The notes under the pieces were generated by a model. It did no database searches, had not been told where the DNA came from, and was given only the letters and a program-made list of their open reading frames with translations. The position numbers and the translations under genes are program-made. From Azolla caroliniana (taxonomy: Eukaryota > Plantae > Polypodiophyta): a stretch of 64,000 bases of DNA. Shown here in pieces: positions 6,127 through 57,500 of this stretch. The DNA lies in the NCBI GenBank assembly GCA_043228905.1, contig JBHGNT010000010.1, positions 12,524,001 to 12,588,000 of the forward strand. The letters run 5' to 3'. Position 1 is the stretch's first letter; every line of letters begins with the position of its first letter.

Positions 6127-6142
6127 AACGGGTGGCAAGGAG

Positions 6143-15057: not shown

Positions 15058-15068
15058 CTATCTCCCCC

Positions 15069-19682: not shown

Positions 19683-19756
19683 AGTAGAGGGACAAGGGTA
19701 GGAGGATGAGGGAGAACGACAAGTAGGCTGGAGGAAAGAAAAAAATTGGTTCCATC

Positions 19757-26982: not shown

Positions 26983-27055
26983 TCCATTATAGTCTAGTTG
27001 GTTAGGATACTCGGCTCTCACCCGAGAGACCCGGGTTCAACTCCCGGCAATGGAA
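26983..27055 (+). tRNA. tRNA-Glu(CTC), near-consensus copy
   Basis: 73 nt, one difference from the array consensus (G7 to A, mismatch at the base of the acceptor stem); A box, B box, anticodon arm CTCGG-CTCTCAC-CCGAG and T arm intact. Confidence 0.7.
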
Positions 27056-33000: not shown

Positions 33001-36000
33001 AATATTAATTTCTTATCAATGATTGTAATATTACAAAGCACACAAAATGTGATCCATTGTACTCTAGTTGGTTAGGATACTCAGCTCTCACCCGAGAGAC
33101 CCGGGTTCAATTACCGGCAATGGAAACGACAATATCATATACTAAATTTTCGACGCATATCATGTGTTAACTGTTTGATAGCTCAATAACTCAAGACCTA
33201 AAGTAGGTGTTACAATAATGTACAGTTAACAAAATAATCAATATTATGTTTGAAGGATTGATAAAGAACTTTACTTTGATTTCCTCCTTGTAACACCAAT
33301 TTCTAAACTTAATCCCATTATTCGATTGTAATTAAGTGGCCTCGAATCGTTGATTTTTACCCAAGACGTGCGGTTACAAGCACAGGCATAGGAAAAACTA
33401 GATACATCATGCACGATGAGTTAATTTGGCATCGATAAACACCCGAGAAATTATTAAATCTTAAAAAAGAGAGTGTGTTAGAATAATCTTCTGTTTCTTG
33501 TTGATACTTGCGCAATATATAAATATTATTTATTACTAATCAATGATTGCAATTTTAAAAAGTGTAAAATATGTGATCCATTGAAGTCTAGTTGGTTAGA
33601 ATACTCGGCTCTCACCTGAGAGACCCGGGTTCAACTCCCGGCAATGAAAACGACAATATCATATATTAAATTTCCGAGGTATATCTTGTGTTAACTGTTT
33701 GATAACTCAAAAACTCAAGACCTAAAGTAGATGCTACAATAATGTACAATTAACCAAATAATCAATATTATGTTTGAGGGATTGATGACGAACTTTGCTT
33801 TCATTTTTTTCTCCTAACATCAATTTCTAAACTTAATCCCATTATTCAATTAATAGTAGAGGTTACAAATGAAATTTGACAAAATATTATGTTGTTTGGT
33901 ATAAGAAGAAGCAATATATTTAGTCGTGGTTATTTCTCAACATGGTTACGACAAATTAGTACACCGACAATTATAGTTTGGATAACTGGATAGAATTTCC
34001 AAAAATACGCATAGATTGTAGAATAATGGTTAACTCTCGATCAACATTGCACCATATTTCTTTATTTGAACCAAAGCACTAGAATATTACATTGACTAAT
34101 TGATTTACTAAATAAATTCCATTATAGTCTAGATTGGAGAATAATAGTCAACTATCGAGAAACCCGTCTTCAACTCCCACCAATAGAAAAGACAATATCA
34201 TATATCATATTTTTCGAAGCATGTCATGTGTTAAGTGCTCGATATCTCAAAAACTGAAGACCTAATATTGTGTTGTTCGGGATAACAAGATGCAGTATAT
34301 TTAGTTCTGGTTATTCCACAACTTTGTTACAACAAATTAGTACACCAACAATTATAGTTTGGATAATTCGATAGAATTTCAAACAATATGCATAGATTGC
34401 AGAATAATGGTCAACTGTCGTTGGCTATTGCACCATGTTTCTTTTTTTTCTAACAAAGGACTAAAATGGTACATTAACTAAGTCATTTACTAAATGAACA
34501 CCATTGTAATCAAGTTCCCTCGGATACTTGCTTTTTACCTGAGACGCCCAGGTACAAGTAGATATATCCTATATCATGAGTAAATATGGCATTGATAAAA
34601 ATCCTTGAAATTATTAAATCTTAAAAACGAGAGTGTGTTAGAATAATCCTCAGTTTTTCGTTGATGCTTGCGCAAAATATAAATATTATTTATTTCTAAT
34701 CAATGATTGCAATATTAAAAAACACACAACATGTGATCCATTGTAGTCTAGTTGGTTAGGATACTCGGGTCTCACCCGATAGACCCGGATTCAACTCCGG
34801 GCAATGGAAACGACAATGTCATATATTAAATTTCTGAGGCATATCTTGTGTTAACAGTTTGATAACTCAATAACTCAAGACCTAAAGTAGATGTTACAAT
34901 AATATACAATTAACAAAATAATCAATATTATGTTTGAAGGATTGATGATGAACATTGCTTTCGTTTTATTCTCCTAATATCAATTTCTAAACTTAATCCC
35001 ATTATTCAATTAATAGTAGACGTTTCAAATGAAATTTGAGAAAATATTATGTTGTTCGGGACAAGGAGAACCAATATATTTGGTTGTGGTTATTTCTCAA
35101 CATGGTTTCGACAAATTAGTATACCGACAATTATAGTTTGGATAACTTGATAGAATTTCCGAAAATATGCATAGATTGTAGAGTAATGGTGAACTCTCGA
35201 TGAACATTGCACCATATTTCTTTATTTGAAGGAAAGCACTAGAATATTACATTGACTAATTCATTTACTAAATAAATTCCATTGTGGTCTAGTTGGTTCG
35301 GATCCTTGTTTTTTTACGCAATGGTCAAATATCGAGAGACCCGGGTTCAACTACCACCAATAGAAAAGATAATATCATACATCATATTTTGTGACGCATG
35401 TCATGTGTTAAGTGTTCGATATCTGAAAAACTGAAGAGCTAAAGTAGTTGTTACAATAATGTACAAATAACAAAATAATCAATATTATGTTTGAAGGATT
35501 GATAAAGAACTATACTTTGATTTTTTTCTCCTAACATTAATTTCTAAACTTAATCCCATTATTCAATTAAAAGTAGAGGTGTCAAATGGTACATTAACTA
35601 AGTCATTTACTAAATTAATACCATTGTAATCAAGTTGCCTCGAATCCTTGCTTTTTATCTGAGACGCCTAGGTACAAGTAGATATATCCTATATCATGAG
35701 TTAATATGGCATCGATAAAAACCCTTGAAATTATTAAATCTTAAAAACGAGAGTGTGTTAGAATAATCGTTAGTTTTTCGTTGATGCCTGTGCAATATAT
35801 AAATATTATTAATTTCTAATAAATGATAGGAAGATTAAAAAGCACACAAGATGTGATCCACGATAGTCGAGTAGGTTAGGATACTCGGCCCTCACCTGAG
35901 AGACCCGGGTTCAACTCCCAGCAACGGAAACGACACTATCATATATTAAATTTCCGATGCATATCAGGTGTTAACTATTTGATAACTCAAAAACTGAAGT

Positions 36001-39000
36001 CCTAAAGTAGGTGTTACAATAATGTACAATTAACTAAATAATTAATTTTATGTTTCAACAATTGATGACGAACTTTACTTTGATTTTCTTCTTCTAACAT
36101 TAAATTCTAAACTTAATTCCATTATTCAATTAATGGTAGAGGTTTCGAATGAAATTGGACAAAATATTATGTTCTTCGGGACAACAAGAAGAAGAAAATA
36201 TTATCTGGTTATTCCTCAACATTATTATGATAAATTAGTACACCAACAATTATAGTTTGGATAACTTGATTCAATTTCAAACAATAAACATAGATTGCAG
36301 AATAATGTTCAACTTTCAACAAGCATTGTACCATTTCTCATTATTTGTAGCATAGCACTAGAATAGTACATTCACTAACTCATTTATTAAATGAATTCCA
36401 TTGTAATCAAGATGCCTCGAATCGTTGATTTTTACCCGAGACGCGTGGGTACAAGTATAGGCATAGGAAAAACTAGATACATTGTAGCTCATTATGTAGT
36501 TTGGCATTGATAAAAATCGGTGAACTTATTAAATCTTAAAAACGAGAGTGTGTTAGAATAATCCTCTATTTCTCGTTGATGTTGGCGCAATACATAAATA
36601 TTCTTTATTACTAATCAATGATCGCAATATTAAAAAGTGCAGTAGATCTGATCCATTCTAGTCTAGTTGGTTAGAATACTTGACTCTGACCTGAGAGACC
36701 TGGTTTCAACTCTCGGGAATAGAAAAGACCATATCATATATCAAATTGTGCAACGTATGTCATGTGTTAACTGTTTGATAACTCAAAAATTGAAGACCTA
36801 AATTAGTTACAATAATGTACGATTAACAAAATAATCAATATTATGTTTGAAAGATTGATGACGAAGTTTAGTTTGATTTTTTTCTCCTAACATCAGTTTT
36901 TAAACTTAATCCCATCATTTGTTTAATTGTAGAGGTTTCGAATGAAATTGGACAAAACATTATGTTGTTCGGGACAATAAGAAGCAGTATATTTGGTTGT
37001 GGTTATTCCTCAACATTGTTACGACAAATTAGTCCACCAACAAGTATAGTTTGGATTACTCAATACAATTTCAAACAAATACGCATAGATTGTAGAATAA
37101 TGGTTAATTGTCGATGAGCATTGTACCATATTTATTTAGTTGTAGCACAACACTAGAATAGTACATGAACTAACTCATTTACTAAATGAATTCCATTGTA
37201 ATCAAGTTGCCTCAAATCCTTGCTTTTTACTTGAGATGCCCGGGTACAAGTAGATATATCATATATCATGAGCTAACGTTGCATCGATAAAAACCCTTGG
37301 ATTTATTAAATCTTAAAGACGATAGTGTGTTGGAATAATCCTCGGTTTTTCGGTAATGCTTGCACACAATATAAATATTATTTATTTCTAATGAATGATT
37401 GCAATATTAAAAAGTACACTAGTCTAGTTGGTTAGGATAGTCGCCAATGGAAACGACACTATCATATATTAAACTTCCGACGCATATCATGTGTTAACTG
37501 TTTGATAACTAAATAACTCAAGACCTAAAGTAGGTGTTACAATATTGTACAATTAACAAAATAATCAATATTATGTTTGAAGGATTGATAAAGAACTTTA
37601 CTTTGATTTTTTCCTCCGAACATCAATTTCTAAACTTAATCCCATTATTCGATTAACTGTAGAGGATTCAAATGATATTGGACAACACATTATGTTGTTC
37701 GGGACAACAAGAAGCAGTATATTTATTTGTGGTTATTCCTCAACATTGTTACGATAAATTAGTAGACCAACAATTATAGTTTGGATAACTCGATACAATT
37801 TCAAACAATACGCATAGATTGTAGAATAATGGTCAACTGTCGATGACTATTGCACCATGTTTCTTTATTTGTAATAGAGGACTAGAATATTACAGTAACT
37901 AATTCATGTGCTAAATGACTAGAATGGTACATTAACGAAATGCCATTGTAATTAAATTGCCTTGGATCCTTCCGTTTTACCTGGGACGCCCAGGTACCAG
38001 TAGATATATCAGATATCATGAGTTAATGTGGCATCGATAAAGACCCTTGAAATTATTAAATCTTAAACACGAGAGTGTGTTAGAATAATCCTCAGTTTTT
38101 CGTTGATACTCGCGCAATATATAAATAGTATTTATTTCTAATCAACGATTGTAATATTAAGAAGCACACAAAATGTGATCCATTGTACTCTAGTTGGTTA
38201 GGATACTCAGCTATCACCCGAGAGACCCGAGTTCAACTACCGACAATGGAAACGACAATATCATATATTAAATTTCCGAGGCATAGCATGTGTTAATTAT
38301 TTGATACCTCAAAAACTCAATTTCTCAAGTATTTGTCACAATAATGTACAATTAACAAAATAATTAATATTATGTTTGAAGCATTGATGACGAACCTTGC
38401 TTTGATTTTCTTCTCCTAACATCAATTTCTAAACTTAATCCCATTATTCAATTAATAGTAGAGGTTTCAAATATAATTTGACAAAACATTATGTTGTTCA
38501 GGACAAGAAGAAGGAATATATTTAGTCGTGGTTATTCCTCAACATTATTACGACAAATTAGTACACCAAGAATTATAGTTTCGATAACTTGATACAATTT
38601 CGAAAAATATGCATAGATTGTCGAATAATGGTGAAGTCTCGATGAGCATTGCACCATGTTTCTTTATTTGAAGTAAAGCACTAGAATATTGCATTAACTA
38701 ATTCATTTACTAAATGAATTCAATTGTAGTCTAGTTGGTTCGGATCCATGATTTTTACACGAGACTCCCAGGTACAACAATTGGCATGGGAAAAACGAGA
38801 TCCATCATAGATCATGAGTTAATATCGCATCGATGGAAACCCTTGAAATTATTAAATCTTAAAACCGAGAGTGTGTTAGAATAATCCCATGTTTGTCGTT
38901 GATACTTGCGCAATATTTAAATATTATTTATTACTAATCAATGATTGCAATTTTGAAAAGTACACAACATATAATCCATTGTAGTCTAGTTGGTTAGGAT

Positions 39001-39522
39001 ACTAGGCTCTCACACGAGAGACCCAGGTTCAACACCCGACAATGGAAATGACAATATCATATATTAAATTTCCGACGCATATCATGTTTTAATTGTTTGA
39101 TAACTTAAAAACTCAAGATTATGTTTGAAGGATTGATGACAAACGTTCCTCGATCAACATTGCAAAAATACGCATAGATTGTAGAATAATGGTGAACTCT
39201 AGATCAACATTGCAACATATTTCTTTATTTGACGCTAAGCACTAGAATATTACATTAAGTAATTCATTTACTAAACTATTTTCATTGTAGTCTACTTGTT
39301 TTTTACACGAGACTCCTGGGTACAACAATAGGCATTGGAGAAACTAGATACATCATAGATCATGAGGTAATGTCGCATTGATAAAAACACTTGAAATTAT
39401 TTAATCTTAAAAACAAGAGTGTGTTAGAATAATCCTGAGTTTCTCGTTGATGCTTGCGCAATATATAAATATTATTTATTACTAATCTATGATTGCAATA
39501 TTAAAAAGTACACAAGATATGA

Positions 39523-39595
39523 TCCAATGTAGTCTAGTTGGTTAGGATACTCGGCTCTCATTCGAGAGACCCGGGTTCAACTCCCGGCATTGGAA
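39523..39595 (+). tRNA. tRNA-Glu(CTC) copy with a fully paired cloverleaf
   Basis: Acceptor TCCAATG/CATTGGA (compensatory pair), anticodon arm with one G-U, T arm CCGGG-TTCAACT-CCCGG. Confidence 0.72.
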
Positions 39596-42500
39596 ACGAC
39601 AATAGCATATATTTAATTTCCGACGAATATCATGTGTTAACTGTTTGATAACTCAAAAAATCAACACCTAAGCTAGTTGTTACAATAATGTACAATTAAC
39701 AAGATAATGAATATTATGTTTGAAGGATTGCTGACGAACTTTACTTTAATTTTTTTCTTCTAACATCAATTTCTAAACTTAATCCCATTATTCGATTAAT
39801 GGTAGAGCTTTCAAATGAAATTAGACAAAACATTATGTTGTTCGAGACAACTATCGACGAGCATTGCACCGTGTTTCTTTCTTTGTACATTAACTTGTTC
39901 ATTTACTCAATAATGGTCAACCCGTGAAATGATTAAATCTTAAAAACGAGAGTGTGTTAGAATAATCCTCTGTTTCTCGTTGATGCTTGCGCAATATATA
40001 AATATTATTTATTTCTAAGCAATGATTGTAATATTAAAAAGCACACTAACTGTGATCCATTGTAGTGTAGTTGCTTAGCATACTCGGCTCTCATCCGAGA
40101 GACCCATGTTCAATTCCCGGCAATGGAAACGACAATATCATATATTCAATTTTCTACGCATATCATGTGTTAACTATTTGATAACTCAAAAACTCAAGAC
40201 CTAAAGTAGGTGTTACAATAATTTACAATTAACAAAATAATCAATATTATGTTTGAAGGACTGATAAAGAACTTTACTTTGATTTTTTCCTCCTAACATC
40301 AATTTCTAAACTTAATCCCATTATTCGATTAATGGTAAAGGTTTCCAATGAAACTGGACCAAACATTATGTTGTTTGGGACAACAAGAAGCAGTATATTT
40401 AGTTATGGTTATTCCTCAACATTGTGATTATAAATTAGTACACCAAAAATTATAGTTTGGATAACTTGATAGAATTTCAAGCAATACGCATTGATTGCAA
40501 AATAATGGTCAACTGTCCACAAGCATTGCAGCATGTTTCTTTATTTGTACCAAAGCACTAGAATAGTACATTAACTAATTCATTTATTCAATCAATTCCA
40601 TTGTAATCAAGTTGCCTTGAATCGTTGATTTTTACCTAAGCCGCGCAGTTACAAGCACAGGTATAGGAAAAGCTAGATACGTCATAGATGATGAGTAAAT
40701 TTGGCATCGATAAAAGGTAGTGAAATTATTAAATCTTAAAAGAAATAGTGTGTTAGAATAAAAGTCCTAAAGTAGGTGTTACAATAATGTACAATTAACA
40801 AAACAATCAACTTTATGTTTCAACGATTGATGACAAGCTTTACTTTGTTTTTCTTCTCCTAACATCAATTTCTAAACTTAATTCCATTATTCGATTAATG
40901 GTAGAGGTTTCGAAAGAAATTGGACAAAGTATTATGTTGTTCGGGACAACAAGAAGAAGAAAATATTATCTGGTTATTCCTCAACATTCTACAATAAATT
41001 AGTACACCAACAATTATAGTTTAGATAACTTGATACAATTTCAAACAATACGCATAGATTGTAGAATAATGTTCAACTGTCGACAAGCATTGCACCATTT
41101 TTTTATATTTGGAGCATGGCACTAGAATAGTGCATTAACTAACTCATTTCCTAAATGAATTCCTATGTAATCGAGATGCCTGGAATCGTTGATTTTTACC
41201 CGAGACACATGGGTACTAGTACATGCATAGGAAAAACTAGATACATCATAGCTCATGAGTTAATATGGCATCAATAAAAACCGGTGAACTTATTAAATCT
41301 TAAAAACAAGATTGTGTTAGAATAATCCTCTGTTTCTTGTTTATGCTTGCCCAATATATAAATATTATTTATCACTAATCAATGATTGCAATATTAAAAA
41401 GTGTACAAGATGTGATCCATGGAAGTCTAGTTGGTTAGAATACTCGGCTCTCAAACGAGAGACTCGGGTTTAACTCCGGGCAATGAAAACGACAATATCA
41501 TATATTAAATTTCCGATGCATATCTTGTGTTAACTGTTTGATAACTCAAAAACTCAAGACCTAAAGTAGATGTTACAATAATGTACAATTAATAAAATAA
41601 TCAATATTATGTTTGAAGGATTGATGACGAACATTGCTTTCCTTTTTTTCTCCTAACATCAATTTCTAAACTTAATCCCATTATTCAATTAATAGTAGAG
41701 GTTTCAAACGAAATTTGAGAAAATATTATGTTGTTCGGGACAAGAAGAAGCAATATATTTAGTCGTGGTTATTTCTCAACATGGTTACGAGAAATTAGTA
41801 CACCGACAATTATAGTTTGGATAACTTGATAGAATTTCCAAAAATACACATAGATTGTAGAATAATGGTGAACTCTCGATCAACATTGCACCATATTTCT
41901 TTAGTTGAAGCAAAGCACTAGAATATTACATTAACTAATTCATTTACTAAATGAATTCCATTGTAGTCTAGTTGGTTCGGATCAATGATTTTTACACGAG
42001 ACTCCTGGGTACAGCAATTGGCATGGGAAAAACTAGATACATCATAGATCATGAGTTAATATCGTATCGATAAAAACCCTTGAAATTATTAAATCTTAAA
42101 AACAAGAGTGTCGAATAATGGTGAATTCTCGATTATCATTGGACGACGTTTGTTTATTTGAACGAAAGGACTTGAATATTACATTAACCAATTCATTTAC
42201 TAAATTAATTCCATTGTAGTCTAGTTCGTTCAAATCCTTGTTTTTTACACAAGACTCCCGGGTACAACAATAGGCATTGCAAAAACTAGATACATCATAG
42301 ATGATGAGGTAATGTCGCATCGATAAAAACCGTTAAAATTATTAAATATTAAAAACGAGAGTGTGTTAGAATAATCCTAAGTTTCTCGTTGATGCTTGCG
42401 CAATATATAAATATTATTTATTACTAATCTATGATTGCAAAATTGAAAAGTAGACAAGATATGATCCATTGTAGTCTAGTTGGTTAGGATACTCGTCTCT

Positions 42501-44783
42501 CACCCGAGAAACCCGGGTTCAACTCCCGGCATAGGAAACGACAATATCATATATTGAATTTCCGACTGATGTCATGTGTTAACTGTTTGATAACTCAAAA
42601 ACTTAAGACCTAAACTAGTTGTTACAATAATATACAATTAACAAAATAATCAATATTATGTTTGAAGGCTTGATGACGAACTTTACTTTCATTTTTTTCT
42701 CCTAACATCAATTTGTAAATTTAATCCCATTATTCGATTAATGGTAGAGCTTTCAAATGAAATTAGACAAAACATTATGTTGTTCGAGACAAAAAGAAGA
42801 AGTATATTTGGTTGTGGTTATTCGTCAACGTTGGTACGACAAATTAGTACACCAACAATTACAGTTGGCATAACTCAATACAATTTCAAACAATATGCAT
42901 AGAATACAAAATAATGTTCAAATGTCGAGAAGCATTGCACCATGTTTCTTTATTTGTAGCAAAGCACTAGAATAGTACATTACCTAATTTATTTTCTAAA
43001 TGAGTTCCATTGTAATCAAATTGCCTCGAATCGTTAATTTCAACTCGAAACGTGCGGGGACAAGTATAGCCATACGAAAAACTAAATACATTATATATCA
43101 TGAGTTAATGTGGCCTCGATAAAAACCCGCGAAATTAATAAATCTTAAAAACGAGAGTGTGTTAGAATAATCCTCTGTTTCTTGTTAATTGTTGTGCAAT
43201 ATATAAATATTATTTACTACTAATGAATGATTGCAATATTAAAAAGTGTACAAGATGTGATCCATTAATGTCTAGTTGGTTAGAATACTGGGCTCTCACC
43301 CCGGAGACCCATATTCAACTCCTCGGAATAGTAAGGACAATATCATATATAAAAGTTTGCAACGCATGTCATGTGTTTGATAACTCAAAAACTCAAGACG
43401 TAAAGTAGTTACAATAACATACAATTAACAAAATAATCAATATTATGTTAGAAGTATTGATAAAGAACTTTGGTTTGATTTTTTTCTCCTCACATCAATT
43501 TCTAAACTTCATCCCAATATTCAATTAATAGTAGAGGTTTTTAATGAAATTTTACAAAACATTATGTTGTTCGGGACAAAAGGAAGTAGTATATTTAGTT
43601 GGGGCTATTCCTCAACATTGTTACGACAAATTAGTACACCAAGAATTATAGTTTCGATAACTTGATACAATTTCCAAAAATACGCATACATTGTCGAATA
43701 ATGGTGTATTCTTGATGAGCATTGCACCATTTTTCTTTATCTGATGTAAAGAACTAGAATATTACATTAACTAATTCATTTACTAAATGAATTCCATTGT
43801 AGTCTAGTTGGTTCGGATCCTTGTTTTTTACACGAGACTCCCGGGTACAACAATTGGCATGGCAAAAACTAGATACATCATATATCATGAGTTAATATCG
43901 CATCGATAAAAACCCTTGAAATTATTAAATCTTAAAAATGAGAGTGTGTTAGAATTATCCTCAATTTCTCGTTGATACTTGCACAATATATAAATCTTAA
44001 TTATTACTAATCAATGATTGCAATATTAAAAAGTACACTAGATATGATCCATGGTATTCTAGTTGGTTACGATACTTGGCTCCCGGGTTTAACTCCCAGC
44101 AATGGAAACGACAACATCATATATTAAATTTCCGACGCAGATCTTGTGTTAACTATTTGATAACTCAAAAACTCAATCCCTAAAGTAGATGTTAAAATAA
44201 TGTACAATTAACAAAATAGTCAATATTATGTTTGAAGGATTGATAACGAACTTTACTTTCATTTTTTTCTCCTAACATCAATTTCTAAACTTCATCCCAT
44301 TATTCAATTAATAGTAGAGGTTTCAAATGAAATTTGACAAAACATTATCTTGTTCGTGACAAGAAGAAGCAGTATATTTAGTCGTGGTTATTTCTCAACA
44401 TGGTTATGACAAATTAGTACACCGACAATTATTGTTTGGATAACTGGATAAAATTTTCAAAAATACGCATAGATTGTAGAATAATGATGAACTCTCGATC
44501 CACATTGCACCATATTTTCTTATTTGAAGCAAAGCACTAGAATATTACATTAACTAATTCGTTGACTTATGAATTCCATTCTAGTCTAGTTGGCATTGGA
44601 AAAACTAAACACATCCTAGATCATGAGGTAATGTCGCATCAATAAAAACCCTTGAAATTATTAAATCTTAAAAACGAGAGTGTGTTAGAATAATCCTCAG
44701 TTTCTCGTTGTTGCTTGCGCAATATATGATTATTATTTATTACAAATCTATGATTGCAATATCAAAAACTACACACGATGTGA

Positions 44784-44856
44784 TCCATTCTAGTCTAGTT
44801 GGTTAGGATACTCGGCTCTCACTCGAGAGACCCGGGTTCAACTCCCGGCAATGGAA
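44784..44856 (+). tRNA. tRNA-Glu(CTC), near-consensus copy (possibly pseudogene)
   Basis: Two differences from consensus (G7 to C mismatch; G-U in the anticodon stem); A and B boxes intact. Confidence 0.55.
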
Positions 44857-47277
44857 ACGACGATATCATATATTAAATTTCCGACTCATATCATGTGTTA
44901 ACCGTTTGATAACCCAAGACCTAAAGTAGGTTTTACAGGAATGTACAATTAACAAAATAATCAATATAATGTTTGAAGGATTGATAACGAAATTTGTTTT
45001 GATTTTTTTCTCCTAACATCATATTGTAAACTTAATCCCATTTTTCAATTAATAGTAGAGGTTTCAAATGAAATTCGACCAATCATTATTTTGTTCTGGA
45101 TAGGAAGAAGTACTATATTTAGTTTTGGTTACTTCTCAACATTGTTACGAGAAATTAGTACAATACGCATAGATTGCAAAATAATGGTCAACTATCGACA
45201 AGCATTGCACCATGTTTCTTTATTTGTAGCAAAGCACTAGAATACTACATTAACTAATTCATTTACTCACTGAATTCCATTGTAATCAACCTACCTCGAA
45301 TCATTGATTTTTATCCGAGATGCGCGTGTACAAGCACAAGCATAGGAAAAACTAGATACATCATAAATTATCAGTTAAATTAGCATTGAGAAAAACTCGT
45401 GAAATTATTAAATCTTAAAAAAGAGAGTGTGTTAGAGTAATCCTTAGTTTCTCGTGATGCTTGCGCAATATAGAAATAATATCTATTACTAATCAATGAT
45501 TACAATATTAAAAAGTGCACAAGATATGATCCAATGTAGTGTAGTTGGTTAGGATACTCGGCTCTCACCCAAGAGACTCGGGTTTAATTCCCGGAAATGG
45601 AAACGACAATATCATATATTAAACTTCCGACGCATATTATGTGTTAATTGTTTGATAACTTAAAAACTGAAGACCTAAAGTAGGCGTTACAATAATGTAC
45701 AATTAACAAAATAATCAATATTATGTTTGAAGGACTGAGAAAGAACTTTAGTTTGATTTTTCTCTCCTAATATCAATTTCTAAATTTAATCCAATTATTC
45801 GATTAATGGTAGACATTTTAATTGAAATTGGACAAAACATTATGTTCTTCGGGACAACAAGAATCGGTATATTTAGTTGTGGTTATTCCTCAACATTGTT
45901 ACGATAATTTAGTACACCAAAAATTATAGTTTGGATAACTCGACAGAATTTCAAACAATAGGCATAGATTGCGTAATAATGGTCAACTGTTGATGTGTAT
46001 TGCAACATGTTTCTTTATTTGTAATAAAGGACTAAAATGGTACATTAACTAACTCATTTACTAAATGAATTCCATTGTAATCAAGTTGCCTCGGATACTT
46101 GCTTTTTACTTGAGACGCCCGTGTACAAGTAGATATATCCTATATCATGAGTTAATATGACATCGATAAAAACACTTGAAATTATTAAATCTTAAAAACG
46201 AGAGTTGGTTAAAGTAATCGTCAGTTTCTAATCAATATATAAATATTATTTATTTCTAATCAATGATAGCAAGATTAAATGATCCACGATAGTCTAGTTG
46301 GTTAGGATACTCGGCTCTCACCTGAGAGACCCGGGTTCAACTCTCGGCAATGGAAACGACAATATCATATATTAAATTTCCAATGTATATCAGGTGTTAA
46401 CTGTTTGATAACTCAAAAATTCAAGTCGTAAAGTAGGTGTTACAATAATGTGCAATTAATAAAATAATCAATATTATGTTTCAACGATTGATGACGCGTG
46501 GGTACAAGTACAGGCATAGGAAAAACTAGATACATCATAGCTCATGAGTTAGTGTACCATCGATAAAAACCGGTGAACTTATTAAATCTTAAAAACAAGA
46601 GTGTGTTAGAATAATCCTTTGTTTCTCGTTGATGCGTGCGCAATATATAAATAATATTTATTACTAATCAATGATTACATTATTTAAAAGTGCACAAGAT
46701 GTGATCTAGTGTAGTCTAGTTGGTTAGAATACTCGGCTCTCACCCGAGAGACCTGAGTTCAATTCCCGGCAATGGAAACGACAATATCATATATTAAACT
46801 TCCGACGCATATCATGTGTTAAGTGTTTGATAACTGAATAACTCAAGACCTAAAGTAGGTGTTACAATAATGTACAATTAACAAAATAATCAATATTATG
46901 TTTGAAGGATTGATGATGAACTTTACTTTGATTTTTTTCTCCTAACATCAATTTCTAAACTTAATCCCATTATTCGATTAATTGGAGATATTTCAAATGA
47001 AATTGGCCCAAACATTATGTTGTTCGCGACAACAAGAAGCAGTATATTTAGTTGTGGTTATTACTCAACATTGTTACGATAAATTAGTACACCAATAATT
47101 ATAGTTTGGATAACTTGATACAATTTCAAACAATACGTATAGATTGCAAAATAATGGTCAACTGTCGACAAGCATTGCACATTGTTTCTTTATTTGTAGC
47201 AAAGCACTAGAATAGTACATTAACTAATTCATTTACTCAATGTATTCCATTGTAATCAAGTTGCCTCGAATCGTTTA

Positions 47278-49675
47278 TTTTTTTTTTCCAAAAAAAGAAA
47301 CTATTTCCATTAGTTAAGCAATGTACAAAGGATAATTTACAACTCATATCTTATAAGACATCTTGCATATCGAAGGAAAACAATAGGTGTAGATGAAACA
47401 ACAACAAAAAATAACTCCAAAGCACCACATCATTCGATGTGTATAGCATAACTCGAACGCATATTCTCCACGTGAGCCTCATACAAGCAGAATTTAGAAT
47501 AGATGTCCTCCATTCGCTCCTCAAGGCAGCACCCATCTAGATGTTAGGTACACTTGGAGGGAACAGCCACCGTGGTGGTTGATAATTCCACTTTCACTTT
47601 ACCATCCATTAGCTGTAGCATCAACGAATCGCTCCATTTCAGCAAGAAATGAGCTCTCTCTTCTTCACTTGCGTCAAATGGCCCTTGAAGACTTTCAAAC
47701 TCACCTCGCAACGTACAAATAAGATTGAACCAGATCATCATTAGATTCTCAGCAGGCGGGGTTCGTTTACCGGAAAAGGTCTCCTTGCACCTAGATACCC
47801 ACACTTGCCAGACCGTAAGGCCGACCACTAATACCCATATGTCCACGCAACGTTCCTGTAAGAAGAATAAACCTCCTTGCGTTGGTTGCACAGATCCTTG
47901 TATCACCTTTAAAGAAGGATTGTTTCCATTCCAACCTTGAAACCAAGAGGCCGATTCAATGGCCAACCAAGTGATTGTTGCGCTCGATACATGAACCTCA
48001 ACCCCGAACCGAGCCCAGTTTCTTAATCTCCTCAACCAATTTTTTTGCGCTCGAGGGCAGCACCACAAACAATGAGCGATGTCCTCCAAGCTCGCACTAC
48101 AGGCCTTGCAACCACTCATGCCGCCTCTATTCCCAAGCCACTCTCCCGTTGGAACAGCCCGATGGGTGATTAACCAGAAAAACACTTTGATCCGCTCAGG
48201 AAGGGATGAGTTCCATATCCTGCTCCTAGTTTTATCCACGAAGGCTAAATCGATAGTTGCATGGGACCACTTGTTGGCACACTTCTAACGATTCGAACCT
48301 AACTTTCTCCCCAACCGTGTCGAGTATTCGAAGAAACCTAATGATTTATCTTGTTCTCCCTTCCACGTATATTCAACGGGATCCCATTCTACGCGCTCGA
48401 GAGGCTTGCCTTCAACCACGTACAAGATCCAATCCTCCTCAACCTCTACGACTGGTGGATTCACCTTCCATTTCTTTCTGCCTCTTGCCACAATTCTAAT
48501 CGGGTGCCAGCCTGCACTTTCATCTAATAATCCAATCTGGACTGGCTTCCCATTCTTTCCTACACCCCTGACATTGATAATTTTTCCGGTATCATCACAT
48601 TGTCCGGACCATTCACCCTCTTCCTCATTACCAATAGGAAGCGAGGAGACAGTTGTATTGACTACGTCAAGCATCTTTCTGCCATTTCTGACCTTTCCCA
48701 AGTCTTCATATAGTTGATCACGATTATTGTCAGACAGCCGCATCCAATAAGCCACTGACTGTATCCCTAGACAATACAATGTAGCCCACGGCATGTGCGT
48801 GCTTTGTCCAAGCATCATTCCTTCTGGCGATTGTACGATCTCGTTCCACAGTAGGGGTTGGCGCATCCATTCAGCACTCGTACTTGGACGATTCCGACTT
48901 AGGTTCCCACGGAGCATACTCCACGCCAGCGTCACTGACATACAAGTACGATCAGCCAACCGGTTATATTTCCTCAACTTTAAGGCCATACAAAAAGGCC
49001 ACGCTTTGTGTGACTTCCAATGCCTACCTAGTCTTGGACTCCAGACAATGCTCCTATTATGTATCAATGTTTTCCATAACTCGTTACCAGGTAGCAAGCT
49101 CCTTACCAATACCTTACATAACAATGCTTGACTCTGCAATCTAGGGTCAACCAATCCTAAACCCTGCTTACTCTTGGGAAGAACCAACGTAGACCATGAT
49201 ACTTTGGCTGCCGCGTTGTCTTTCCTCATCCCAGCCCAAAGGAATCCCCTAATACACGCTTTAACATTACGAATAACTTGCTTGTCAAACATCCACACTG
49301 AAACTGCATGCCATAATGTAGACAAGAACACATGGTTAGCTACTATGATCCTGCCAGCCAATGATAAGTTCATCCCTGACCAGTTGTGAATTTTGTCACA
49401 TATTTTGCTTTGAATTTGTTGCAACTGAATTCCTTTGTCGATATCTACCCCAATCCACGTTCCCAGATACCGAGTGGCTTCCCCGTTTGCAATCCATTTG
49501 AATTCAGCATTTGGCTTCCAAACTGTCTCGGACTCCAAGATGATACAAAAACCCTTGGACTTCTTATCGTCCACGAACTCTGAGTCCAGCAGGGACTTCC
49601 TTTAATTAGGGATCGAAAGACCATGAAGATTTTCCCCTTGACTGTTAAAAAGGGCAGACATTGCTTCAGTAATAA
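47278..49675 (-). mobile_element. 5'-truncated L1-clade LINE
   Basis: Poly(T) at 47278-47287 (poly-A tail on -); ORF2 remnants EFVDD (RT FADD-like, ~49570), RYLG, W...LSLAGRIIVANHV, VSWSTLVLPKSKQGLGL, zf-RVT-like CKAC...EDIAHCLWCC; satellite resumes in register at ~49676. Boundaries +/- a few bp. Confidence 0.92.
47544..49675 (-). pseudogene. LINE ORF2 C-terminal part (RT end and cysteine-rich domain), disrupted
   Basis: ORFs 48285-49574 and 47544-48239 are in the same frame and separated by a stop; further stop near 49602. Confidence 0.88.
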
Positions 49676-52600
49676 ACTCAAAACGTGCAGGTACAAGTAC
49701 AGGCATAGGAAAAACTAGATACATTATATGTCATGAGTTAATGTGGCATCGATAAAAACCCGTGAAATTATTAAATCTTAAAAACGTGAGTGTGTTAGAA
49801 TAATGCTCTGTCTCTTGTTGAGGCTTGCACAATATATAAATATTATTTATTACTAATCAATGATTGCAATATTAAAACGTGTACAAGATGTGATCCATTG
49901 AAGTCTATTTGGTTAGAATACTCGGTTCCTTGCTTTTTACCTGAGACGCCCGGATAAAACTAGATATATCAGATATCATGAGTTAATGTGGCATCGAGAA
50001 AAACCCTTGAAATTATTAAATCTTAAGCACGAGAGTGTGGTAGAATAATCCTTAGTTTTTCGTTGATGCTTGTGCAAAATATAAATATTATTTATTTCTA
50101 ATCAATGATTGCAATATCAAAAAGCACACAAAATGTGATCCATTGTAGTCTAGTTGGTTAGGATACTCGGGTCTCACCCGAGAGACCCAGATTCAACTCC
50201 CGGCAATGGAAACGACAATGTCATATATTAAATTTTCGACGCATATCATGCGTTATCTGTTTGATAACTCAAAAACTCAAGACCTAAAGTAAATGTTACA
50301 ATAATGTACAATTAACCAAATAATCAATATTATGTTTAAAGGATTGATGACGAACTTTACTTTGATATTTCTCTCCGAACATCAATTTCTAAACTTAATC
50401 CCATTATTCGATTAAGGGTAGAGGTTTCAAATGAAATTGGACAAAACATTATGTTATTCGAGACAACAAGAAGCAGTATATTTGGTTATGGTTATTCGTG
50501 AACATTGGTACGACAAATTAGTACAACAACAATTATATATCATGAGTTCATGTGGCATCGATAAAAACCCGTGAAATTATTAAATCTTAAAAACGAGAGT
50601 GTGTTGATGCTTGCGCAATCTATAAATATTGTTTATTACTAATCAATGATTGTAATATTAAAAAGTGTACAAGATGTGATCCATTGAAGTCTAGTTGGTT
50701 AGAATACTCGGTTCCTTGCTTTTTACCTGAGACGCCCGGGTACAACTAGATATATCAGATATCATGAGTTAATGTGGCATCGAGAAAAACCCTTGAAATT
50801 ATTCAATCGTAAAAACGAAAGTGTGGTAGAATAGTCCTCTGTTTCTCGTTGATGCTTGCGCAAAATATTTGTAATCAATGATAACAATATTAAAAAGCAC
50901 ACAAAATGTGATCCATTGTAGTCTAGTTGGTTAGGATACTCGGCTCTCACCCGAGAGTTCCGGGTTCAACTACCGGCAATGGAAACAACAATGGCATATA
51001 TTAGATTTCCGACATAGATAATGCGTTATCTGTTTGATAACTCCAAAAGTCAAGACCTAAAGTAAATGTTACAATAATGTACAATTAACAAAATAATCAA
51101 TATTATGTTTGAACAATTGATGACGAACTTTACTTTGATATTTCTCTGCTAACATCAATTTCTAAACTTAATCCCATTATTTGATTAATGGTAGAGGTTT
51201 CAAATGAAATTGGACAAAACATTATGTTGTTCGGGATAACAAGAAGCACTATACTTGGTTGTGGTTATTCATCAACATTGGTACGAGAAATTAGTACACC
51301 AACAATTATAGTTTGCATAACTCGAGACAATTTCGAACAATAGGCATAGATTGCAGAATAATGGTCAACTGTCGATGAGCATTGTACCGTGTTTCTTTAT
51401 TTGTAACAAAGGACTAGAATGGTACATTAACTAATTCATTTACTAAAGGAATTCCATAGTAATCAAATTGCTTTGGATCCTTGCTTTTTACCTGAGACGC
51501 CCTAAAGTAGTTCTTACAATAATGTACAATTAACAAAATAATTAATATTATGTTTGAAGGATTGACAAAGAACTTTACTTTAATTGTTTTCTCCTAACAT
51601 CAATTTCTAAATTTAATCCCATTATTCGATTAATGGTAGAGGTTTCGAATGAAATTGGACCAAACATTATGTTGTTCGGGACAACAAGAAGCAGTATATA
51701 TAGTTGTGGTTATTCCTCAACATTGTTACAATTAATTAGTACACCAAAGATTATAGTTTGTTGTGGATAACTCGATACAACTTCAAACAATACGCATAGA
51801 TTGTGGAATAATGGTCAACTGTTGATGACTATTGTACGATGTTTCTTTATTTGTAACAAAGGACTAGAATGGTACATTAACTAAATTCCATTGTAATTAA
51901 ATTGCCTCGGATCCTTGCGTTTTACCTGTGACGCCAGGGTAAAAGTAGATATGTCATATACCATGAGTTAATGTGACATTTATAAAAACCCTTGAAATTT
52001 GTAAATCTTAAAAACGAGAGTGTGTTAGAATAATCCTCAGTTTTTTGTTGATGCTTCCACAAAATATAAATAGTATTTATTTCTCATCAACGATTGTAAT
52101 ATTACAAAGCACACAAAATGTGATCCATTGTACTTTAGTTGGTTAGGATACTCAGCTCTCACCCGAGAGATCCGGGTTCAACTCCCCGAAATGGAAACGA
52201 CAATATCATATATTAAATTTTCGACGCATATCATGTGTTAACTGTTTGAGAACTCAATAACTCAAGACCTAAAGTAGGTGTTACAATAATGTACAGTTAA
52301 AAAAATAATCAATATTATGTTTGAAGGATTGATAAAGAACTTTACTTTGATTTTTTCCTCCGAACATCAATTTCTAAACTTAATCCCATTATTCGATTAA
52401 TGGTAAAGGTTTCGAATGAAACTGGACCAAACATTATGTTGTTCGGGACAACAAGAAGTAGTATATTTAGTTATGGTTATTCCTCAACATTGTTACGATA
52501 AATTAGTAGACCAACAATTATAGTTTGGATAACTTGATACAATTCCAAGCAATACGCATAGATTGTAAAATAATGGTCAATTGTTGACAAGCATTGCACC

Positions 52601-54089
52601 ATGTTTCTTTCTTTATACCAAAGCACCAGAATAGTACATTAACCAATTCATTTATTCAATCAATTCCATTGAAATCAAGTTGCCTTGAATCGTTGATTTT
52701 TACCCAAGCCGCGCGGTTACAAGCACAGGCATAGGAAAAACTAGATACATCATAGATGATGAGTTAATTTGGCATCGATAAAAACCAGTGAAATTATTTA
52801 ATCTTAAAATTGATGGTGTGTTAGAATAATCCTCTGTTTCTTGTTGATGCTTGCGCAATATGTAAATATTATTTATTACTAATCTATGATTGCAATATTA
52901 AAAACTATACAATATGTGATCCATTGAAGTCTAGTTGGTTAGAATACTCGGCTCTCACCTGATAGACCCGGGTTCAACTCCTGGCAATGAAAACGACAAT
53001 ATCATATATTAAATTTCCGACGCATATCTTGTTTTAACTGTTTGATTATTCAAAAACTCAAGACGTAAAGTAGATGTTACAATAATGTACAATTAATAAA
53101 ATAATCAATATTATGTTTGAAGAATTGATGACGAACTTTCCTTTCATTTTTTTCTAGTAACATCAATTTGTAAACTTAATCCCATTATTCAATAATAGTA
53201 GAGGTTTCAAATGAAATTTTATAAAATATTATGTTGTTCGGGAGAAGAAGAAGCAATATATTTAGTCGTTGTTATTTCTCAACATGGTTACGACAAATTA
53301 GTACACTGACAATTATAGTTTGCATACCTTGATAGAATTTCCAAAGATACGCATAGATTGTGGAATAATGGTGAACTCTCGATCAACATTGCACCATATT
53401 TCTTTATTTGAAGTAAAGTAGTAGAATATAACATTAACTAATTCATTTACTAAATAAATTCCATTGTAGTCTAGTTGGTTCGGATCCTTGTTTTTTTACG
53501 CACAGATTGCAAAATAATGGTCAACTATCGCGAGACCCGGGTTCATCTCCAACCAATAGAAAAGACAATATCATATATCATATTTTGCAACGCATGTCAA
53601 GTGTTAAGTGTTCGATAACTCAAAAACTGAAGACCTAACATTATTTTTGTTCAGGATAACAAGATGCAATATATTTAGTTCTGGTTATTCCACAAATTTG
53701 TTACGCCAAATTAGTACACGAAAAATATAGTCTGGATAACTCGATGGAATTTCAAACAATACGCATAGATTGCAAAATAATGATCAACTATCGATGAGTA
53801 TTGCACCATGTTTCTTTATTTCTAACAAAGGACTAAAATGGTACATTAACTAAGCCATTTACTAAATGAATACCATTGTAATCTAGTTGCCTCGGATCGT
53901 TGCTTTTTACCTGAGCACCTGGGTACAAGTAGATATATCCTATATCATGAGTGAATATGGCATTGATAAAAACCCTTGAAATTATTAAATCTTAAGAACG
54001 AGAGTGTGTTAGAATAATCGTCTGTTTTTTGTTGATGCTTGCGCAATATATAAATATTATTTATTTCTAATCAATGATAGCAAGATTAA
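49676..54089 (+). repeat. tRNA-Glu-derived satellite, block 4
   Basis: Same monomer; near-intact-type copies at ~50139, 50912, 52124, 52920. Confidence 0.95.
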
Positions 54090-54523: not shown

Positions 54524-57500
54524 ATTAAAAAGCACACAAGATGTGATCCACGATAGTCTACTTGGTTAGGATACTCGGCCCTCACCTGAGAGACCGGGGT
54601 TCAACTCCTGGCAATGGAAACGACAATATCATATATTAAATTTCGACGCATATCAGGTGTTAACTGTTTGATAACTCAAAAACTCAAGTCCTAAAGTAGG
54701 TGTTACAATAATGTACAATTAACAAAACAATCAACTTTATGTTTCAACGATTGATGACGAGCTTTACTTTGATTTTCTTCTCCTAACATCAACTTCTAAA
54801 CTTAATTCCACTATTCGATTAATGGTAGAGGTTTCGAAAGAAAATGGACAAAATATTATGTTGTTCGGGACAACAAGAAGAAGAAAATATTATCTGGTTA
54901 TTCCTCAACATTATTACGATAAATTAGTACACCAACAATTATAGTTTAGATAACGTGATACAATTTCAAACAATACGCATAGATTGCAAAATAATGTTCA
55001 ACCGTCAACAAGCTTTGCACCATTTTTTTTTATTTGGAGCATGGCACTAGAATAGTACATTAACTAACTCATTTACTAAATGAATTCCTATGTAATCGAG
55101 ATGCCTGGAATTGTTGATTTTTACCCGAGACACGTGGGTACAAGTACAACCATAGGAAAAACTAGATACATGATAGCTCATGAGTTAGTTTGGCATCGAT
55201 AAAAACCAGTGAATTTATTAAATCTTAAAAATGAGAGTGTGTTAGAATAACCCTCTGTTTCTTGTTGATGCTTGCACAATATATAAATATTATTTATCAC
55301 TAATCAATGATTGCAATATTAAAAAGTCTACAAGATGTGATCCATGGAAGCCTCGTTGGTTAGAATCCTCGGCTCTCATACGAGAGACTCGGGTTTAACT
55401 CCCGGCAATGAAAACGACAATATCATATATTAAATTTCCGAGGCATATCTTGTGTTAACTGTTTGAAAACTCAAAAACTCAAGACCTAAAGTAGATGTTA
55501 CAATCATGTACAATTAATAAAATAACCAATATTATCTTTCAAGGATTGATGACGAATATTGCTTTCCTTTTTTTCTCCTAACATCAATTTCTAAACTTAA
55601 TCCCATTATTCAATTAATAGTAGAGGTTTCAAATGAAATTTGACAAAATGTTATGTTGTTCGGGACAAGAAGAAGCAATATATTTAGTCATTTCTCAACA
55701 TGGTTATGACAAATTAGTACACCAACAATTATAGTTTGGATAACTTGATAGAATTTCCAAAAATACGCATGGATTGTAGAATAATGGTGAACTCTCGATC
55801 AACATTGCACCATATTTCTTTATTTGAAGCAAAGCACTAGAATATTACATTAACTAATTCATTTACTAAATGAATTCCATTGTAGTCTAGTTGATTCGGA
55901 TCCATGATTTTTACACGAGACTCCCGGGTACAGTAATTGGCATGGGAAAAACTAGATACATCATAGATCATGAGTTAATATCGCATCGATGGAAACCCTT
56001 GAAATTATTAAATCTTAAAACCGAGACTGTGTTAGAGTAATCCTCTATTTCTCGTTGATGCTTGCACAATATATAAATATTATTTATTACTAATCAATGA
56101 TTGCAATATTGAAAAGTACACAAGATATAATCCATTGTAGTCTTGTTGGTTAGGATACTAGGCACTCACCTGAGAGACCCGGGTTCAACCATAGCAATAT
56201 TATTGATTACTAATCAATCATGGCAATATGAATAAGTACACTAGATATGATCCATTGTAGTCCAGTTGGTTAGGATACTTGGCTCTCACCTTAGAGACCC
56301 GGGTTCAACTCCTAGCAATGGAAACGACAATATCATATATTAAAATTCCGATGCATATCATGTGTTAACTGTTTGATAACTCAAAAACTCAAGACCTAAA
56401 GTAGGTATCAAACAAAAACTCAAGACCTAAAGTAGGTATCAAACAAAAACTCAGGACCTAAAGTAGGTGTTACAATAATGTACAGTTAACAAAATATTCA
56501 ATATTATGTTTGGAGGATTGATAAAGAATTTTACTTTGGTTTTTTTCTCCTAACATCAATTTCTAAACTTAATCCCATTATTCAATTAATACTAGAGGTT
56601 TCAAATGAAATTTGACAAAACATTATGTTGTTCAGGACAAGAAGAAGTAGTATATTTAGTTGTGGTTATTCCTCAACATTGTTACGACAAATTAGTACAC
56701 CAAAATTTATAGTTTGGATAACTTGTTACAATTTCTAACATACGTATAGATTAAAAAATAATAGTCAACTGTTGATGATCATTGCACAATGTTTCTTTCT
56801 TTATAACAAAGGACTAGAATGGTACATTAACTAATTCATTTACTAAATGAATTGCATTGTAATCAAGTTGCCTCGGATCCTTGCATTTTTACCTGACACG
56901 CTCAGGTACAAGTAGACATATCATATATCATGAGTTAAATCTTAAAAACCCTTGAAATTATTAAATCTTAAAAATGACAGTGTGTTAGAATAATTCTCAG
57001 CTTTCGTTGATGCTTGCGCAATATATAAATATTATTTATTTCGAATCAATGATTGCAATATTAAAAAGCACACAAGATGTGATCCATTGTAGTCTAGTTG
57101 GTTAGAATACTCAGCTCTCACCCGAGAGACCCGGGTTCCACTCCCGGTAATGGAAAAGAAAATATCATATATCAAATTTTGCGACACATGTCATGTGTTA
57201 ACTGTTTGATAACTCAAAAACTCAAGCCCTAAAGTAGTTGTTAGAATAATGTACAATTAACAAAATAATCAATATTATGTTTGAAGGATTGAGAAAGAAC
57301 TTTACATTCAGGTTTTTCTCATCAATGGGATTAATCAAAACATCAATTTCTAAACTTAATCCCATTATTCAATTAATAGTAGAGGTTTCAAATGAAATTT
57401 GACAAAACATTAGGTTGCTCGGGACAAGAACAAGCAGTAAATTTAGTCGTGGCTATTTCTCAATATTGTTACGACAAATTGGTACACCGACAATTACAGT

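What the first reader, a model, noticed from the sequence alone, without database searches (positions are those of the whole stretch)
46705..47277. The ~795-bp monomer is a cryptic trimer holding three tRNA-Glu copies at three stages of decay
Seen: besides the near-intact tRNA (e.g. 46705), each monomer has a colinear 73-nt degenerate copy (TCCATTGTAGTCTAGTTGGTTCGGATCCTTGTTTTTTACACGAGACTCCCGGGTACAACAATTGGCATGGGAA, e.g. 43793; a variant at 47246) about 256 bp before the next intact one. A third relic (CCCATTATTCGATTAATGGT...CGGGACAACAAGAAGCA, e.g. 46966) lies 261 bp after it. Spacings 261+280+256 sum to the monomer length. Spacers also align: TAGAATAATCCTCAGTTTCTCGTTGATGCTTGCGC vs TAGAATAATGGTGAATTCTCGATGAGCATTGCAC vs GTTACAATAAT, and TAACTAATTCATTTACTAAATGAATTCCATT vs TAACATCAATTTCTAAACTTAATCCCATT. 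Inference: a ~260-bp tRNA tandem array became a 3-mer higher-order repeat in which only one of three tRNAs stayed intact at consensus level, which suggests selection on that subunit before or during amplification.
Basis: partly seen in the sequence, partly recalled or inferred. Interest (0 to 1): 0.8.

Follow-up and report, generated by a model that had tools for sequence, protein, structure and literature searches.

The report
Decaying tRNA satellite with living core
A repeat array spanning over half a million bases of a plant chromosome is built from a 796-base unit holding one glutamate tRNA gene, one clear dead copy and likely a third; most units are decaying at about the neutral rate, while a recently re-amplified variant keeps its tRNA unchanged and is likely still functional.

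Summary
Partly confirmed. The window lies in a tRNA-Glu(CTC) tandem array (796-bp unit, about 58 units in the window, 0.57 Mb span on contig C10, broken by retrotransposons). The second tRNA copy (C) is real: 52/73 ungapped, z=11, in two subfamily versions. The third (B) is not detectable as a tRNA. A three-part origin rests on spacer and junction register, which gave mixed tests (about 70% likely). The tRNA was constrained before amplification: 3 differences from true genes against 16-20 in relic C. It is not constrained now in the old array: 0 of 291 copies match the consensus, with 6.4 changes per copy against 6.3 expected. New here: a rearranged 1.6-2.0 kb sub-lineage elsewhere on C10 re-amplified recently, with 52 of 60 tRNAs unchanged (0 tRNA against 42 flank changes on amplified branches; single sister units 12 against 53, p=0.003). 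Two other young blocks carry broken tRNAs. Sister Glu arrays lie on C7, and Lys, Arg, Ile and Thr arrays elsewhere. Expression is untested. Verdict: new variant of a plant tRNA gene cluster.

The parts
46705..46777 (+). Subunit A tRNA-Glu(CTC) copy, 6 changes from the array consensus, acceptor stem damaged
46778..46965 (+). Subunit A spacer; holds the shared TTACAATAAT block and the first run of 4 or more T after the tRNA (T7 at 46932-46938, about 155 nt downstream)
   Evidence: homologous to the C7 array's downstream flank
46966..47245 (+). Subunit B (280 bp): likely a third ancestral unit; its tRNA part is not recognisable, its last 100-115 nt match the DNA upstream of tRNA A
47246..47282 (+). 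Relic C, Y subfamily, cut after 37 nt by an insertion
47283..49689 (-). LINE-like insertion (zf-RVT domain) interrupting the monomer; the monomer resumes at 49690
43261..44047 (+). Near-full monomer of subfamily X
43793..43865 (+). Relic C, X subfamily, full 73 nt; no cloverleaf signal (folding z 0.18)
42465..43260 (+). Full 796-bp monomer of subfamily Y
26983..27055 (+). tRNA A copy with one change from the consensus (G7A)
1..5398 (+). Array block
5399..12469 (+). Ty3/Gypsy-type insertion (RT, RNase H, integrase)
12470..14638 (+). Array block
14639..20182 (-). Ty3/Gypsy-type insertion (gag, RT, RNase H)
20183..47282 (+). Main array block, head-to-tail monomers with many internal deletions, X and Y types mixed
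49690..54089 (+). Array block
54554..61660 (+). Array block; 5 ARAGORN tRNAs within 3.2 kb (56251-59441)

Best explanation
This is a nuclear tRNA-Glu(CTC) gene cluster that became a higher-order satellite: its 796-bp unit holds one consensus-intact tRNA, one dead copy and likely the remains of a third, most units now decay at about the neutral rate, and a young re-amplified sub-lineage likely keeps working genes. Steps. (1, inferred) A ~260-bp tRNA unit was tandemly repeated and three neighbouring units diverged; B lost its tRNA first, C later, and A stayed under purifying selection. (2, shown) The unit split into subfamilies X and Y. (3, shown as pattern; unequal crossing-over inferred) The unit spread to at least 344 monomer equivalents, was broken by deletions and retrotransposons, and its tRNAs decayed with a methylated-cytosine pattern, broken alleles spreading by descent. 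(4, shown as pattern; selection inferred) One rearranged 1.6-2.0 kb unit re-amplified recently at several places on C10 with its tRNA unchanged while its flanks changed by 6-8%. This is birth-and-death turnover in which a small, periodically renewed subset likely carries the function.
For: Relic C z=11. Anchored spacer homology p 0.0005-0.01; the predicted B start is among the top 4 of 42-45 peaks in 8 of 9 related scans. The consensus tRNA keeps all 21 stem pairs and differs from dispersed CTC genes at 3 sites, two of which form the A4:U69 pair also used by dispersed Glu(TTC) genes and the C7 array. Old array: mean 6.36 changes per copy against 6.29 expected, stems 1.07 of expectation, 10 of 291 copies structurally whole; 108 closest pairs give a tRNA/flank ratio of 1.39 against 1.36 expected; in most regions CG and CHG sites change about 3-5 times faster than A/T. 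Young lineage, listed by a tRNA-independent junction motif (71 matches): 52 of 60 units with a tRNA are unchanged; 0 tRNA against 42 flank events on amplified branches, 12 against 53 in single units, Fisher p=0.003; still P=0.0055 with the lineage's own mutation spectrum. One 24-25-nt copy of the C10-type tRNA 3' end, read with CCA, sits at a break in a retrotransposon on C4.
Against: B is not tRNA-like on its own. The A/C profile finds it at 54, 83 and 2 of 200 shuffles for X, Y and mixed consensus, and the C7 outgroup does not align to B (p 0.57, 0.75). Site-level tests show a tRNA deficit in the old array (ratio 0.69 and 0.85, p 0.0004 and 0.01), so weak constraint is not excluded. Two other young blocks (7.4 and 3.8 copies, 94-97% alike) carry tRNAs with 5-10 changes, so amplification does not need an intact tRNA. 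The young lineage is one phylogenetic event, first seen through a tRNA search; C191 and C362 may duplicate the C10 arrays. Its flank changes run AT-to-GC 25:9 (p=0.0016), so biased conversion or low methylation may help preserve a GC-rich tRNA. The nearest terminator is about 155 nt away. The C4 capture is one event with one diagnostic base, and the element itself supplies the CCA complement.
Confidence: 0.6

Rival explanations
1. The unit is a two-tRNA dimer (A and C) whose long spacer holds an internal duplication; B never had a tRNA.
For: No tRNA signal in B; profile tests mixed; the C669-718 block ranks only 10th-58th against B; no outgroup support for B.
Against: The same C-spacer block (about 683-715) aligns to both A and B on tRNA-anchored diagonals; the distance from the AATAAT block to the next unit start is 98-103 nt in all three (read); the junction at 262 ranks in the top 4 in 8 of 9 scans.
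Confidence: 0.28
2. The whole family is a neutral satellite; the unchanged tRNA in the young arrays is a by-product of GC-biased conversion, low methylation or luck, and none of it is expressed.
For: Neutral decay in the old array; young blocks with broken tRNAs; AT-to-GC skew on amplified branches; distant terminator; Arabidopsis clusters are methylated and silent (PMC7544208, abstract).
Against: 0 tRNA changes where 5.2 are expected under the lineage's own spectrum; single sister units decay; the C4 captured copy carries the C10-type base at position 59, where 74 of 74 C7 copies have G.
Confidence: 0.3
3. The tRNA subunit is under continuing selection across the whole array.
For: Context-corrected deficit of 15-31% at tRNA sites.
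Against: 0 of 291 copies match the consensus, stems are not protected; closest pairs neutral; G24A in 103 of 336 copies and in 39 of 56 copies that follow a Y-type relic.
Confidence: 0.07
4. The array persists for a structural role (centromere or heterochromatin boundary), with the tRNA boxes acting as TFIIIC sites rather than as genes.
For: Mid-chromosome position (12.4-14.4 of 22.3 Mb) among retrotransposon-rich DNA, with a chromosome-specific young repeat.
Against: Matches found only on C10 and unplaced contigs; the sampled stretches between 13.0 and 14.3 Mb hold none of it; A and B boxes alone would not need the whole 73 nt unchanged.
Confidence: 0.12

Closest known systems
Arabidopsis Ser-Tyr-Tyr tDNA cluster (27 three-gene units, about 40 kb; PMC7544208 abstract and section 13; PMC13437025 passages)
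   Same: Tandem three-part unit of tRNA genes in one orientation; same-position subunits more alike across units than within a unit; reported as methylated, silent, and reactivated in one cell type.
   Different: Here one isotype; two of three positions are dead in the consensus; at least 344 monomer equivalents over 0.57 Mb; most copies pseudogenised; a second level of repeat (1.6-2.0 kb) is built from rearranged pieces.
Plant tDNA homoclusters: Arabidopsis Pro, maize Ile (28 copies), Ceratodon clusters (up to 110 genes per cluster in a 50-species survey; PMC11700998 and PMC12652284, passages)
   Same: Single-isotype tandem amplification.
   Different: Those are described as compact (PMC13437025, section 10); this one is several times larger, satellite-like and mostly decayed; no Glu homocluster is named in the passages read.
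Extreme tRNA gene count of the fern Azolla filiculoides (about 7500 annotated genes; PMC13437025 and PMC13578239, passages)
   Same: This genome also holds many single-isotype tRNA arrays (Glu on C10 and C7; Lys, Arg, Ile, Thr elsewhere).
   Different: The passages give a count and suggest a link to fast growth, without array anatomy. That this host is a fern is an untested lead from an earlier AI note. Here ARAGORN genes in a window where few copies are whole.
Higher-order-repeat satellites such as primate alpha satellite (recalled), and 5S rDNA arrays where a small subset is active (PMC13578239, passage)
   Same: Diverged subunits amplified as a block; old diverged layers beside young homogeneous ones; function in a subset.
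   Different: The subunit is a tRNA gene with its flanks; no centromere role is shown.
tRNA-derived SINEs and SINE-derived satellites (PMC10702118, search listing only)
   Same: tRNA-related sequence in a tandem repeat.
   Different: The head is a full-length tRNA, there is no poly(A) tail in the monomer, and no dispersed spacer copies were found.

Membership tests
Plant tDNA homocluster | At least 5 tRNA genes of one isotype within 5 kb, same orientation | tested here: met
   30 of 30 ARAGORN genes are Glu on +; five lie in 56251-59441
Plant tDNA homocluster | DNA methylation and transcriptional silencing | not testable with these tools
   Indirect only: changes at CG sites 0.14-0.23 and at most CHG sites 0.16-0.37 against 0.04-0.12 at A/T
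Higher-order repeat satellite | Same-position subunits across units more alike than subunits within a unit | tested here: met
   Copies about 88% to consensus; A against C tRNA 73-78%, spacers about 55-63% of aligned columns
Higher-order repeat satellite | Three homologous subunits | tested here: inconclusive
   Anchored tests positive; free, profile and outgroup tests weak
Functional nuclear tRNA gene | Full cloverleaf pairing, invariant bases, Glu anticodon | tested here: met
   Consensus keeps 21 of 21 pairs and 52 of 60 young units equal it; in the old array 10 of 291 copies are whole
Functional nuclear tRNA gene | AT-rich upstream with CAA motif | tested here: met
   AT-rich flank with CAA at -9 to -7 in the consensus; a CAA lies within 12 nt of the start in the four amplified representatives
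Functional nuclear tRNA gene | Run of 4 or more T within about 25 nt downstream | tested here: not met
   First run at consensus 228-234; dispersed CTC genes have one close by
Functional nuclear tRNA gene | Expressed, processed, charged | not testable with these tools
   Needs tRNA sequencing; one captured 3' copy on C4 is a hint only
tRNA-derived SINE | Dispersed copies with tRNA-related head, unrelated body and A-rich tail | tested here: not met
   Monomer matches confined to C10 and unplaced contigs; no tail in the consensus
Centromeric satellite | CENH3 binding | not testable with these tools
   No chromatin data
Centromeric satellite | Present on most chromosomes | tested here: not met
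   C10 and unplaced contigs only (searches give lower bounds); a distant sister array on C7

The most novel reading that the evidence does not exclude
In this lineage tRNA genes evolve as megabase-scale satellites: arrays expand, die by methylation-driven decay, and are reborn when a rare rearranged unit with a perfect gene re-amplifies, so that an array-specific Glu(CTC) isodecoder from about 50-90 young copies outnumbers the 5-6 dispersed genes and sets tRNA dosage, while most of the thousands of annotated tRNA genes in such genomes are satellite relics.
Probability: 0.3. Interest if true: 0.75.

Novelty: new variant of a known kind. Interest (0 to 1): 0.5.

Why it matters
It shows, in one locus, the path from a tRNA gene cluster to a higher-order satellite, with internal neutral controls (relic C, spacers, single sister units). 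It warns that tRNA gene counts in such genomes are inflated by decayed arrays: 10 of 291 old copies are structurally whole, yet ARAGORN genes in this window. Whether plant tRNA clusters are adaptive or by-products is stated as open (PMC13578239, passage). The young arrays make it testable, because their tRNA differs from the dispersed Glu(CTC) genes at three bases and can be told apart in tRNA sequencing.

Tried and rejected
No RNA holder listed for the young repeat; three runs of guessed or unknown RNA kind laid nothing; this is no evidence on expression. Runs of organisms C and D gave no cover on the spacers at 80% likeness; lack of cover is not proof of absence. Rfam at E up to 10 finds neither relic B nor relic C in 41400-47300, so it does not discriminate. 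Ungapped autocorrelation of the consensus peaks at lag 255 but ties with lag 29; the masked lag scan peaks at 254 and 262 but also at 350. Transcription-linked mutation upstream of the young tRNA: 16 of 65 against 57 of 527 (p=0.005) was dropped, because six of the changes form one block that likely came by recombination with the B spacer. The second apparent tRNA capture (C10:1940480, 18 nt) was dropped as a diagnostic: 7 of its last 8 bases are explained by an inverted piece of the element itself. The idea that A4:U69 is CpG decay was dropped: dispersed Glu(TTC) genes carry it. No flank of the six dispersed CTC loci resembles the spacers, and ten-kb samples of other isotype arrays share no spacer. 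No small RNA family in the 155-nt trailer. A recalled statement on tRNA-Glu expansion in water ferns was not found in the main text or the 9 held supplementary files of PMC6786969; supplements not held may bear on it.

Full report
Setting. The window is G000:C10:12524001-12588000 of a 523 Mb genome. ARAGORN tRNA-Glu genes, all on +; Rfam finds 40 tRNA matches and no other family. A repeat covers 45,834 bases of the window, about 58 monomer equivalents, in five blocks. Three of the four gaps and the window's end hold Ty3/Gypsy or LINE-like domains. The host is a land plant by inference from tRNA sequence and elements; that it is a fern is an untested lead from an earlier AI note.

Monomer. Iterative alignment of 31 near-full copies gives a 796-bp majority sequence. 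In 534 kb of continuous DNA the repeat covers 273,679 bases, about 344 monomer equivalents, at about 88% identity to consensus. Samples show it from about 12.42 to 12.99 Mb and again at 14.35-14.44 Mb, with none in ten 10-kb samples between 13.0 and 14.31 Mb. Two subfamilies, X and Y, differ at 25 diagnostic sites and are mixed along the array.

Second tRNA. Positions 542-614 match tRNA A without gaps at 52 of 73 sites, z=11.1, 0 of 1000 shuffles; X and Y versions differ from A at 16 and 20 sites. It is a dead copy: the anticodon loop has several C-to-T changes, and the 43793 copy folds no better than shuffles (z 0.18).

Third part. As a tRNA, B fails: 294 and 143 of 1000 shuffles score as well, and banded tests give 186 and 208 of 300. 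Free local alignments of the spacers are not significant. Tests fixed by the two real tRNAs are positive: upstream 130 nt, 3 of 300; downstream 130 nt, 2 of 300. The 100-115 nt upstream of A find the DNA upstream of C as top peak of 35-37 in 6 of 6 scans, p 0.0005-0.003. The C669-718 block finds A129 as top peak in 3 of 3 scans, though that window was chosen after seeing the data; against B it ranks 10th-58th, and global downstream tests give p 0.07-0.15. Both alignments share the AATAAT block, which implies three spacer copies. The C start junction finds the predicted B start among the top 4 of 42-45 peaks in 8 of 9 related scans. Against this, an A/C profile finds B at 54, 83 and 2 of 200 shuffles, and the C7 sister array aligns to the A spacer (p 0.005, 0.02) but not to B. 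I put the three-part origin at about 70%.

Early selection. The consensus tRNA differs from the dispersed Glu(CTC) genes on C1, C3 and C4 at three sites: A4, C59, T69. It keeps 21 of 21 stem pairs. A4:U69 is also used by dispersed Glu(TTC) genes and by the C7 array, so it is a working pair. X and Y differ at 0 of 73 sites in tRNA A, 2 of 188 in its spacer, 15 of 280 in B, 12 of 73 in relic C and 8 of 182 in the C spacer. A was therefore constrained, or homogenised with its spacer, while C decayed. The first run of four or more T lies about 155 nt downstream, unlike the dispersed genes.

Decay since. Of 291 complete A copies at 12.47-12.86 Mb, none equals the consensus. The mean is 6.36 changes against 6.29 expected from context rates of non-polymorphic flank sites; stems change at 1.07 of expectation; 10 copies keep all pairs, invariant bases and a Glu anticodon. 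In 108 disjoint closest pairs the tRNA/flank ratio is 1.39 against 1.36 expected (choosing pairs by flank distance biases this upward). Like-for-like site tests give ratios of 0.69 (all sites) and 0.85 (polymorphic sites removed), p 0.0004 and 0.01, so a small deficit remains; the first figure is inflated by X/Y differences in B and C. G24A, which breaks the D stem, is in 103 of 336 copies and in 39 of 56 copies after a Y relic: broken genes were amplified. C and G sites change faster than A and T, most at CG and CHG, as expected for methylated DNA (established knowledge).

Young sub-lineage. A tRNA search showed arrays of period 1620, 1618, 1622 and 2005 on C10, C191 and C362, about 99% homogeneous where measured. 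They are one family of rearranged X and Y pieces, about 95% alike between arrays. To limit ascertainment I listed members by a junction motif outside the tRNA: 71 matches, 63 examined, 3 dropped for having no tRNA at that place; 52 of the 60 left equal the consensus tRNA while flanks differ by 34-46 of about 590 sites. On ten representatives, branches to amplified units carry 0 tRNA and 42 flank events, and single units 12 and 53 (Fisher p=0.003; about 15 of the 53 come from a recombinant junction, which works against the contrast). Flank changes on amplified branches run AT-to-GC 25:9, unlike the old array (p=0.0016); with this spectrum 5.2 tRNA changes are still expected (P=0.0055). Against a general rule, two other young blocks (7.4 and 3.8 copies) have tRNAs with 5-10 changes. 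In run X8, another sample of organism A, two single contigs nearly identical to the young unit have depth 1332 and 1547, which argues weakly against an assembly artefact; depth is not copy number.

A possible trace of expression. A pattern for the tRNA end with CCA finds two places (the reversed control also finds two). Both lie in a young chromodomain Ty3/Gypsy family whose coding region holds a 10-12-nt site complementary to the Glu tRNA end. The C10 copy is explained mostly by the element's own sequence. The C4 copy continues for 14 more bases of tRNA found nowhere else in the element and carries the C10-type base at 59; C7 copies have G in 74 of 74 and dispersed TTC genes have A. Mis-priming by a mature array-type tRNA is the simplest reading, but capture from genomic DNA is not excluded. 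It is one event.

Context. C7 holds sister Glu(TTC) arrays with the same tRNA body, a related downstream flank and many whole copies (23 of 171 hits identical to their type). Lys(TTT), Arg(TCT), Ile(TAT) and Thr(TGT) arrays occur on other contigs. Run X10 (organism B) covers the whole monomer; runs X16 and X17 (organisms C, D) lay 395 and 688 contigs on the tRNA part.

Literature. Read: PMC7544208 (abstract, section 13), PMC13437025 (passages, section 10), PMC13578239, PMC12652284 and PMC11700998 (passages), PMC6786969 (passages, and a term search of 9 held supplements). They describe compact plant clusters, the silent Ser-Tyr-Tyr trimer, and about 7500 annotated tRNA genes in Azolla filiculoides without array anatomy. 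Nine searches found no description of a Glu higher-order array with dead subunits; the library lacks most subscription papers. Look-ups of earlier scan notes by sequence and by place returned nothing.

Verdict. Observation partly confirmed; interpretation partly supported. New variant of a known kind, interest 0.5.

Noticed in passing
G000:C7:8.77-8.83 Mb, 9.66-9.81 Mb, 11.47 Mb (L203-L212); C261: Sister tRNA-Glu(TTC) arrays with a hybrid gene (CTC-type body, TTC anticodon, A4:U69), units of 282-680 bp and their own higher-order periods (1134, 1552, 1989); far more whole copies than on C10.
   Followed up: partly
L121-L138 (C2, C3, C4, C5, C11, C16, C22): Other single-isotype tRNA arrays: Lys(TTT) 368-bp and 301-319-bp units, Arg(TCT) about 690 bp, Ile(TAT), Thr(TGT). 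Earlier notes report Gypsy elements in this genome with tRNA-Arg sites; a link to the Arg arrays is untested.
   Followed up: no
G000:C4:6048416-6048440 (L161): 24-25-nt copy of the C10-type tRNA-Glu 3' end at an internal deletion in a chromovirus copy whose LTRs are 96.6% alike.
   Followed up: yes
L163-L202 (553 first-look candidates on many contigs): Young Ty3/Gypsy chromodomain family, about 5.9 kb, 549-bp LTRs, copies 99.3-99.6% alike, with no obvious tRNA primer site after the 5' LTR but a 10-12-nt Glu-tRNA-complementary site about 1.3 kb inside, where two rearranged copies break.
   Followed up: partly
C10:14.35-14.44 Mb, 12.42 Mb; C191; C362: Flank changes on amplified branches of the young repeat are AT-to-GC biased, 25:9, opposite to the old array; biased gene conversion or low methylation.
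   Followed up: partly
consensus 1-220 of the monomer (e.g. window 46705-46924): The tRNA and its trailer up to the T run are poor in common variants (6 in 220 sites against 56 in 576), which fits later homogenisation of the whole A segment.
   Followed up: partly
window 54090-54553: 464-bp non-array insertion, not identified.
   Followed up: no
window 26983-27729 and 44784-45529: Two monomers 94.6% alike over 747 bases, a local duplication 17.8 kb apart.
   Followed up: no
runs X16, X17 laid on L020:973-1645: Very high summed contig depth on the tRNA alone, with run-specific variants and shared loose ends; one X17 loose end resembles the DNA after relic C. Suggests Glu arrays with other spacers in organisms C and D.
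   Followed up: no
L115:1-5780 and L153:5350-8385: Young local expansions (778/1558-bp, inverted; 795-bp) of monomers with broken tRNAs.
   Followed up: yes
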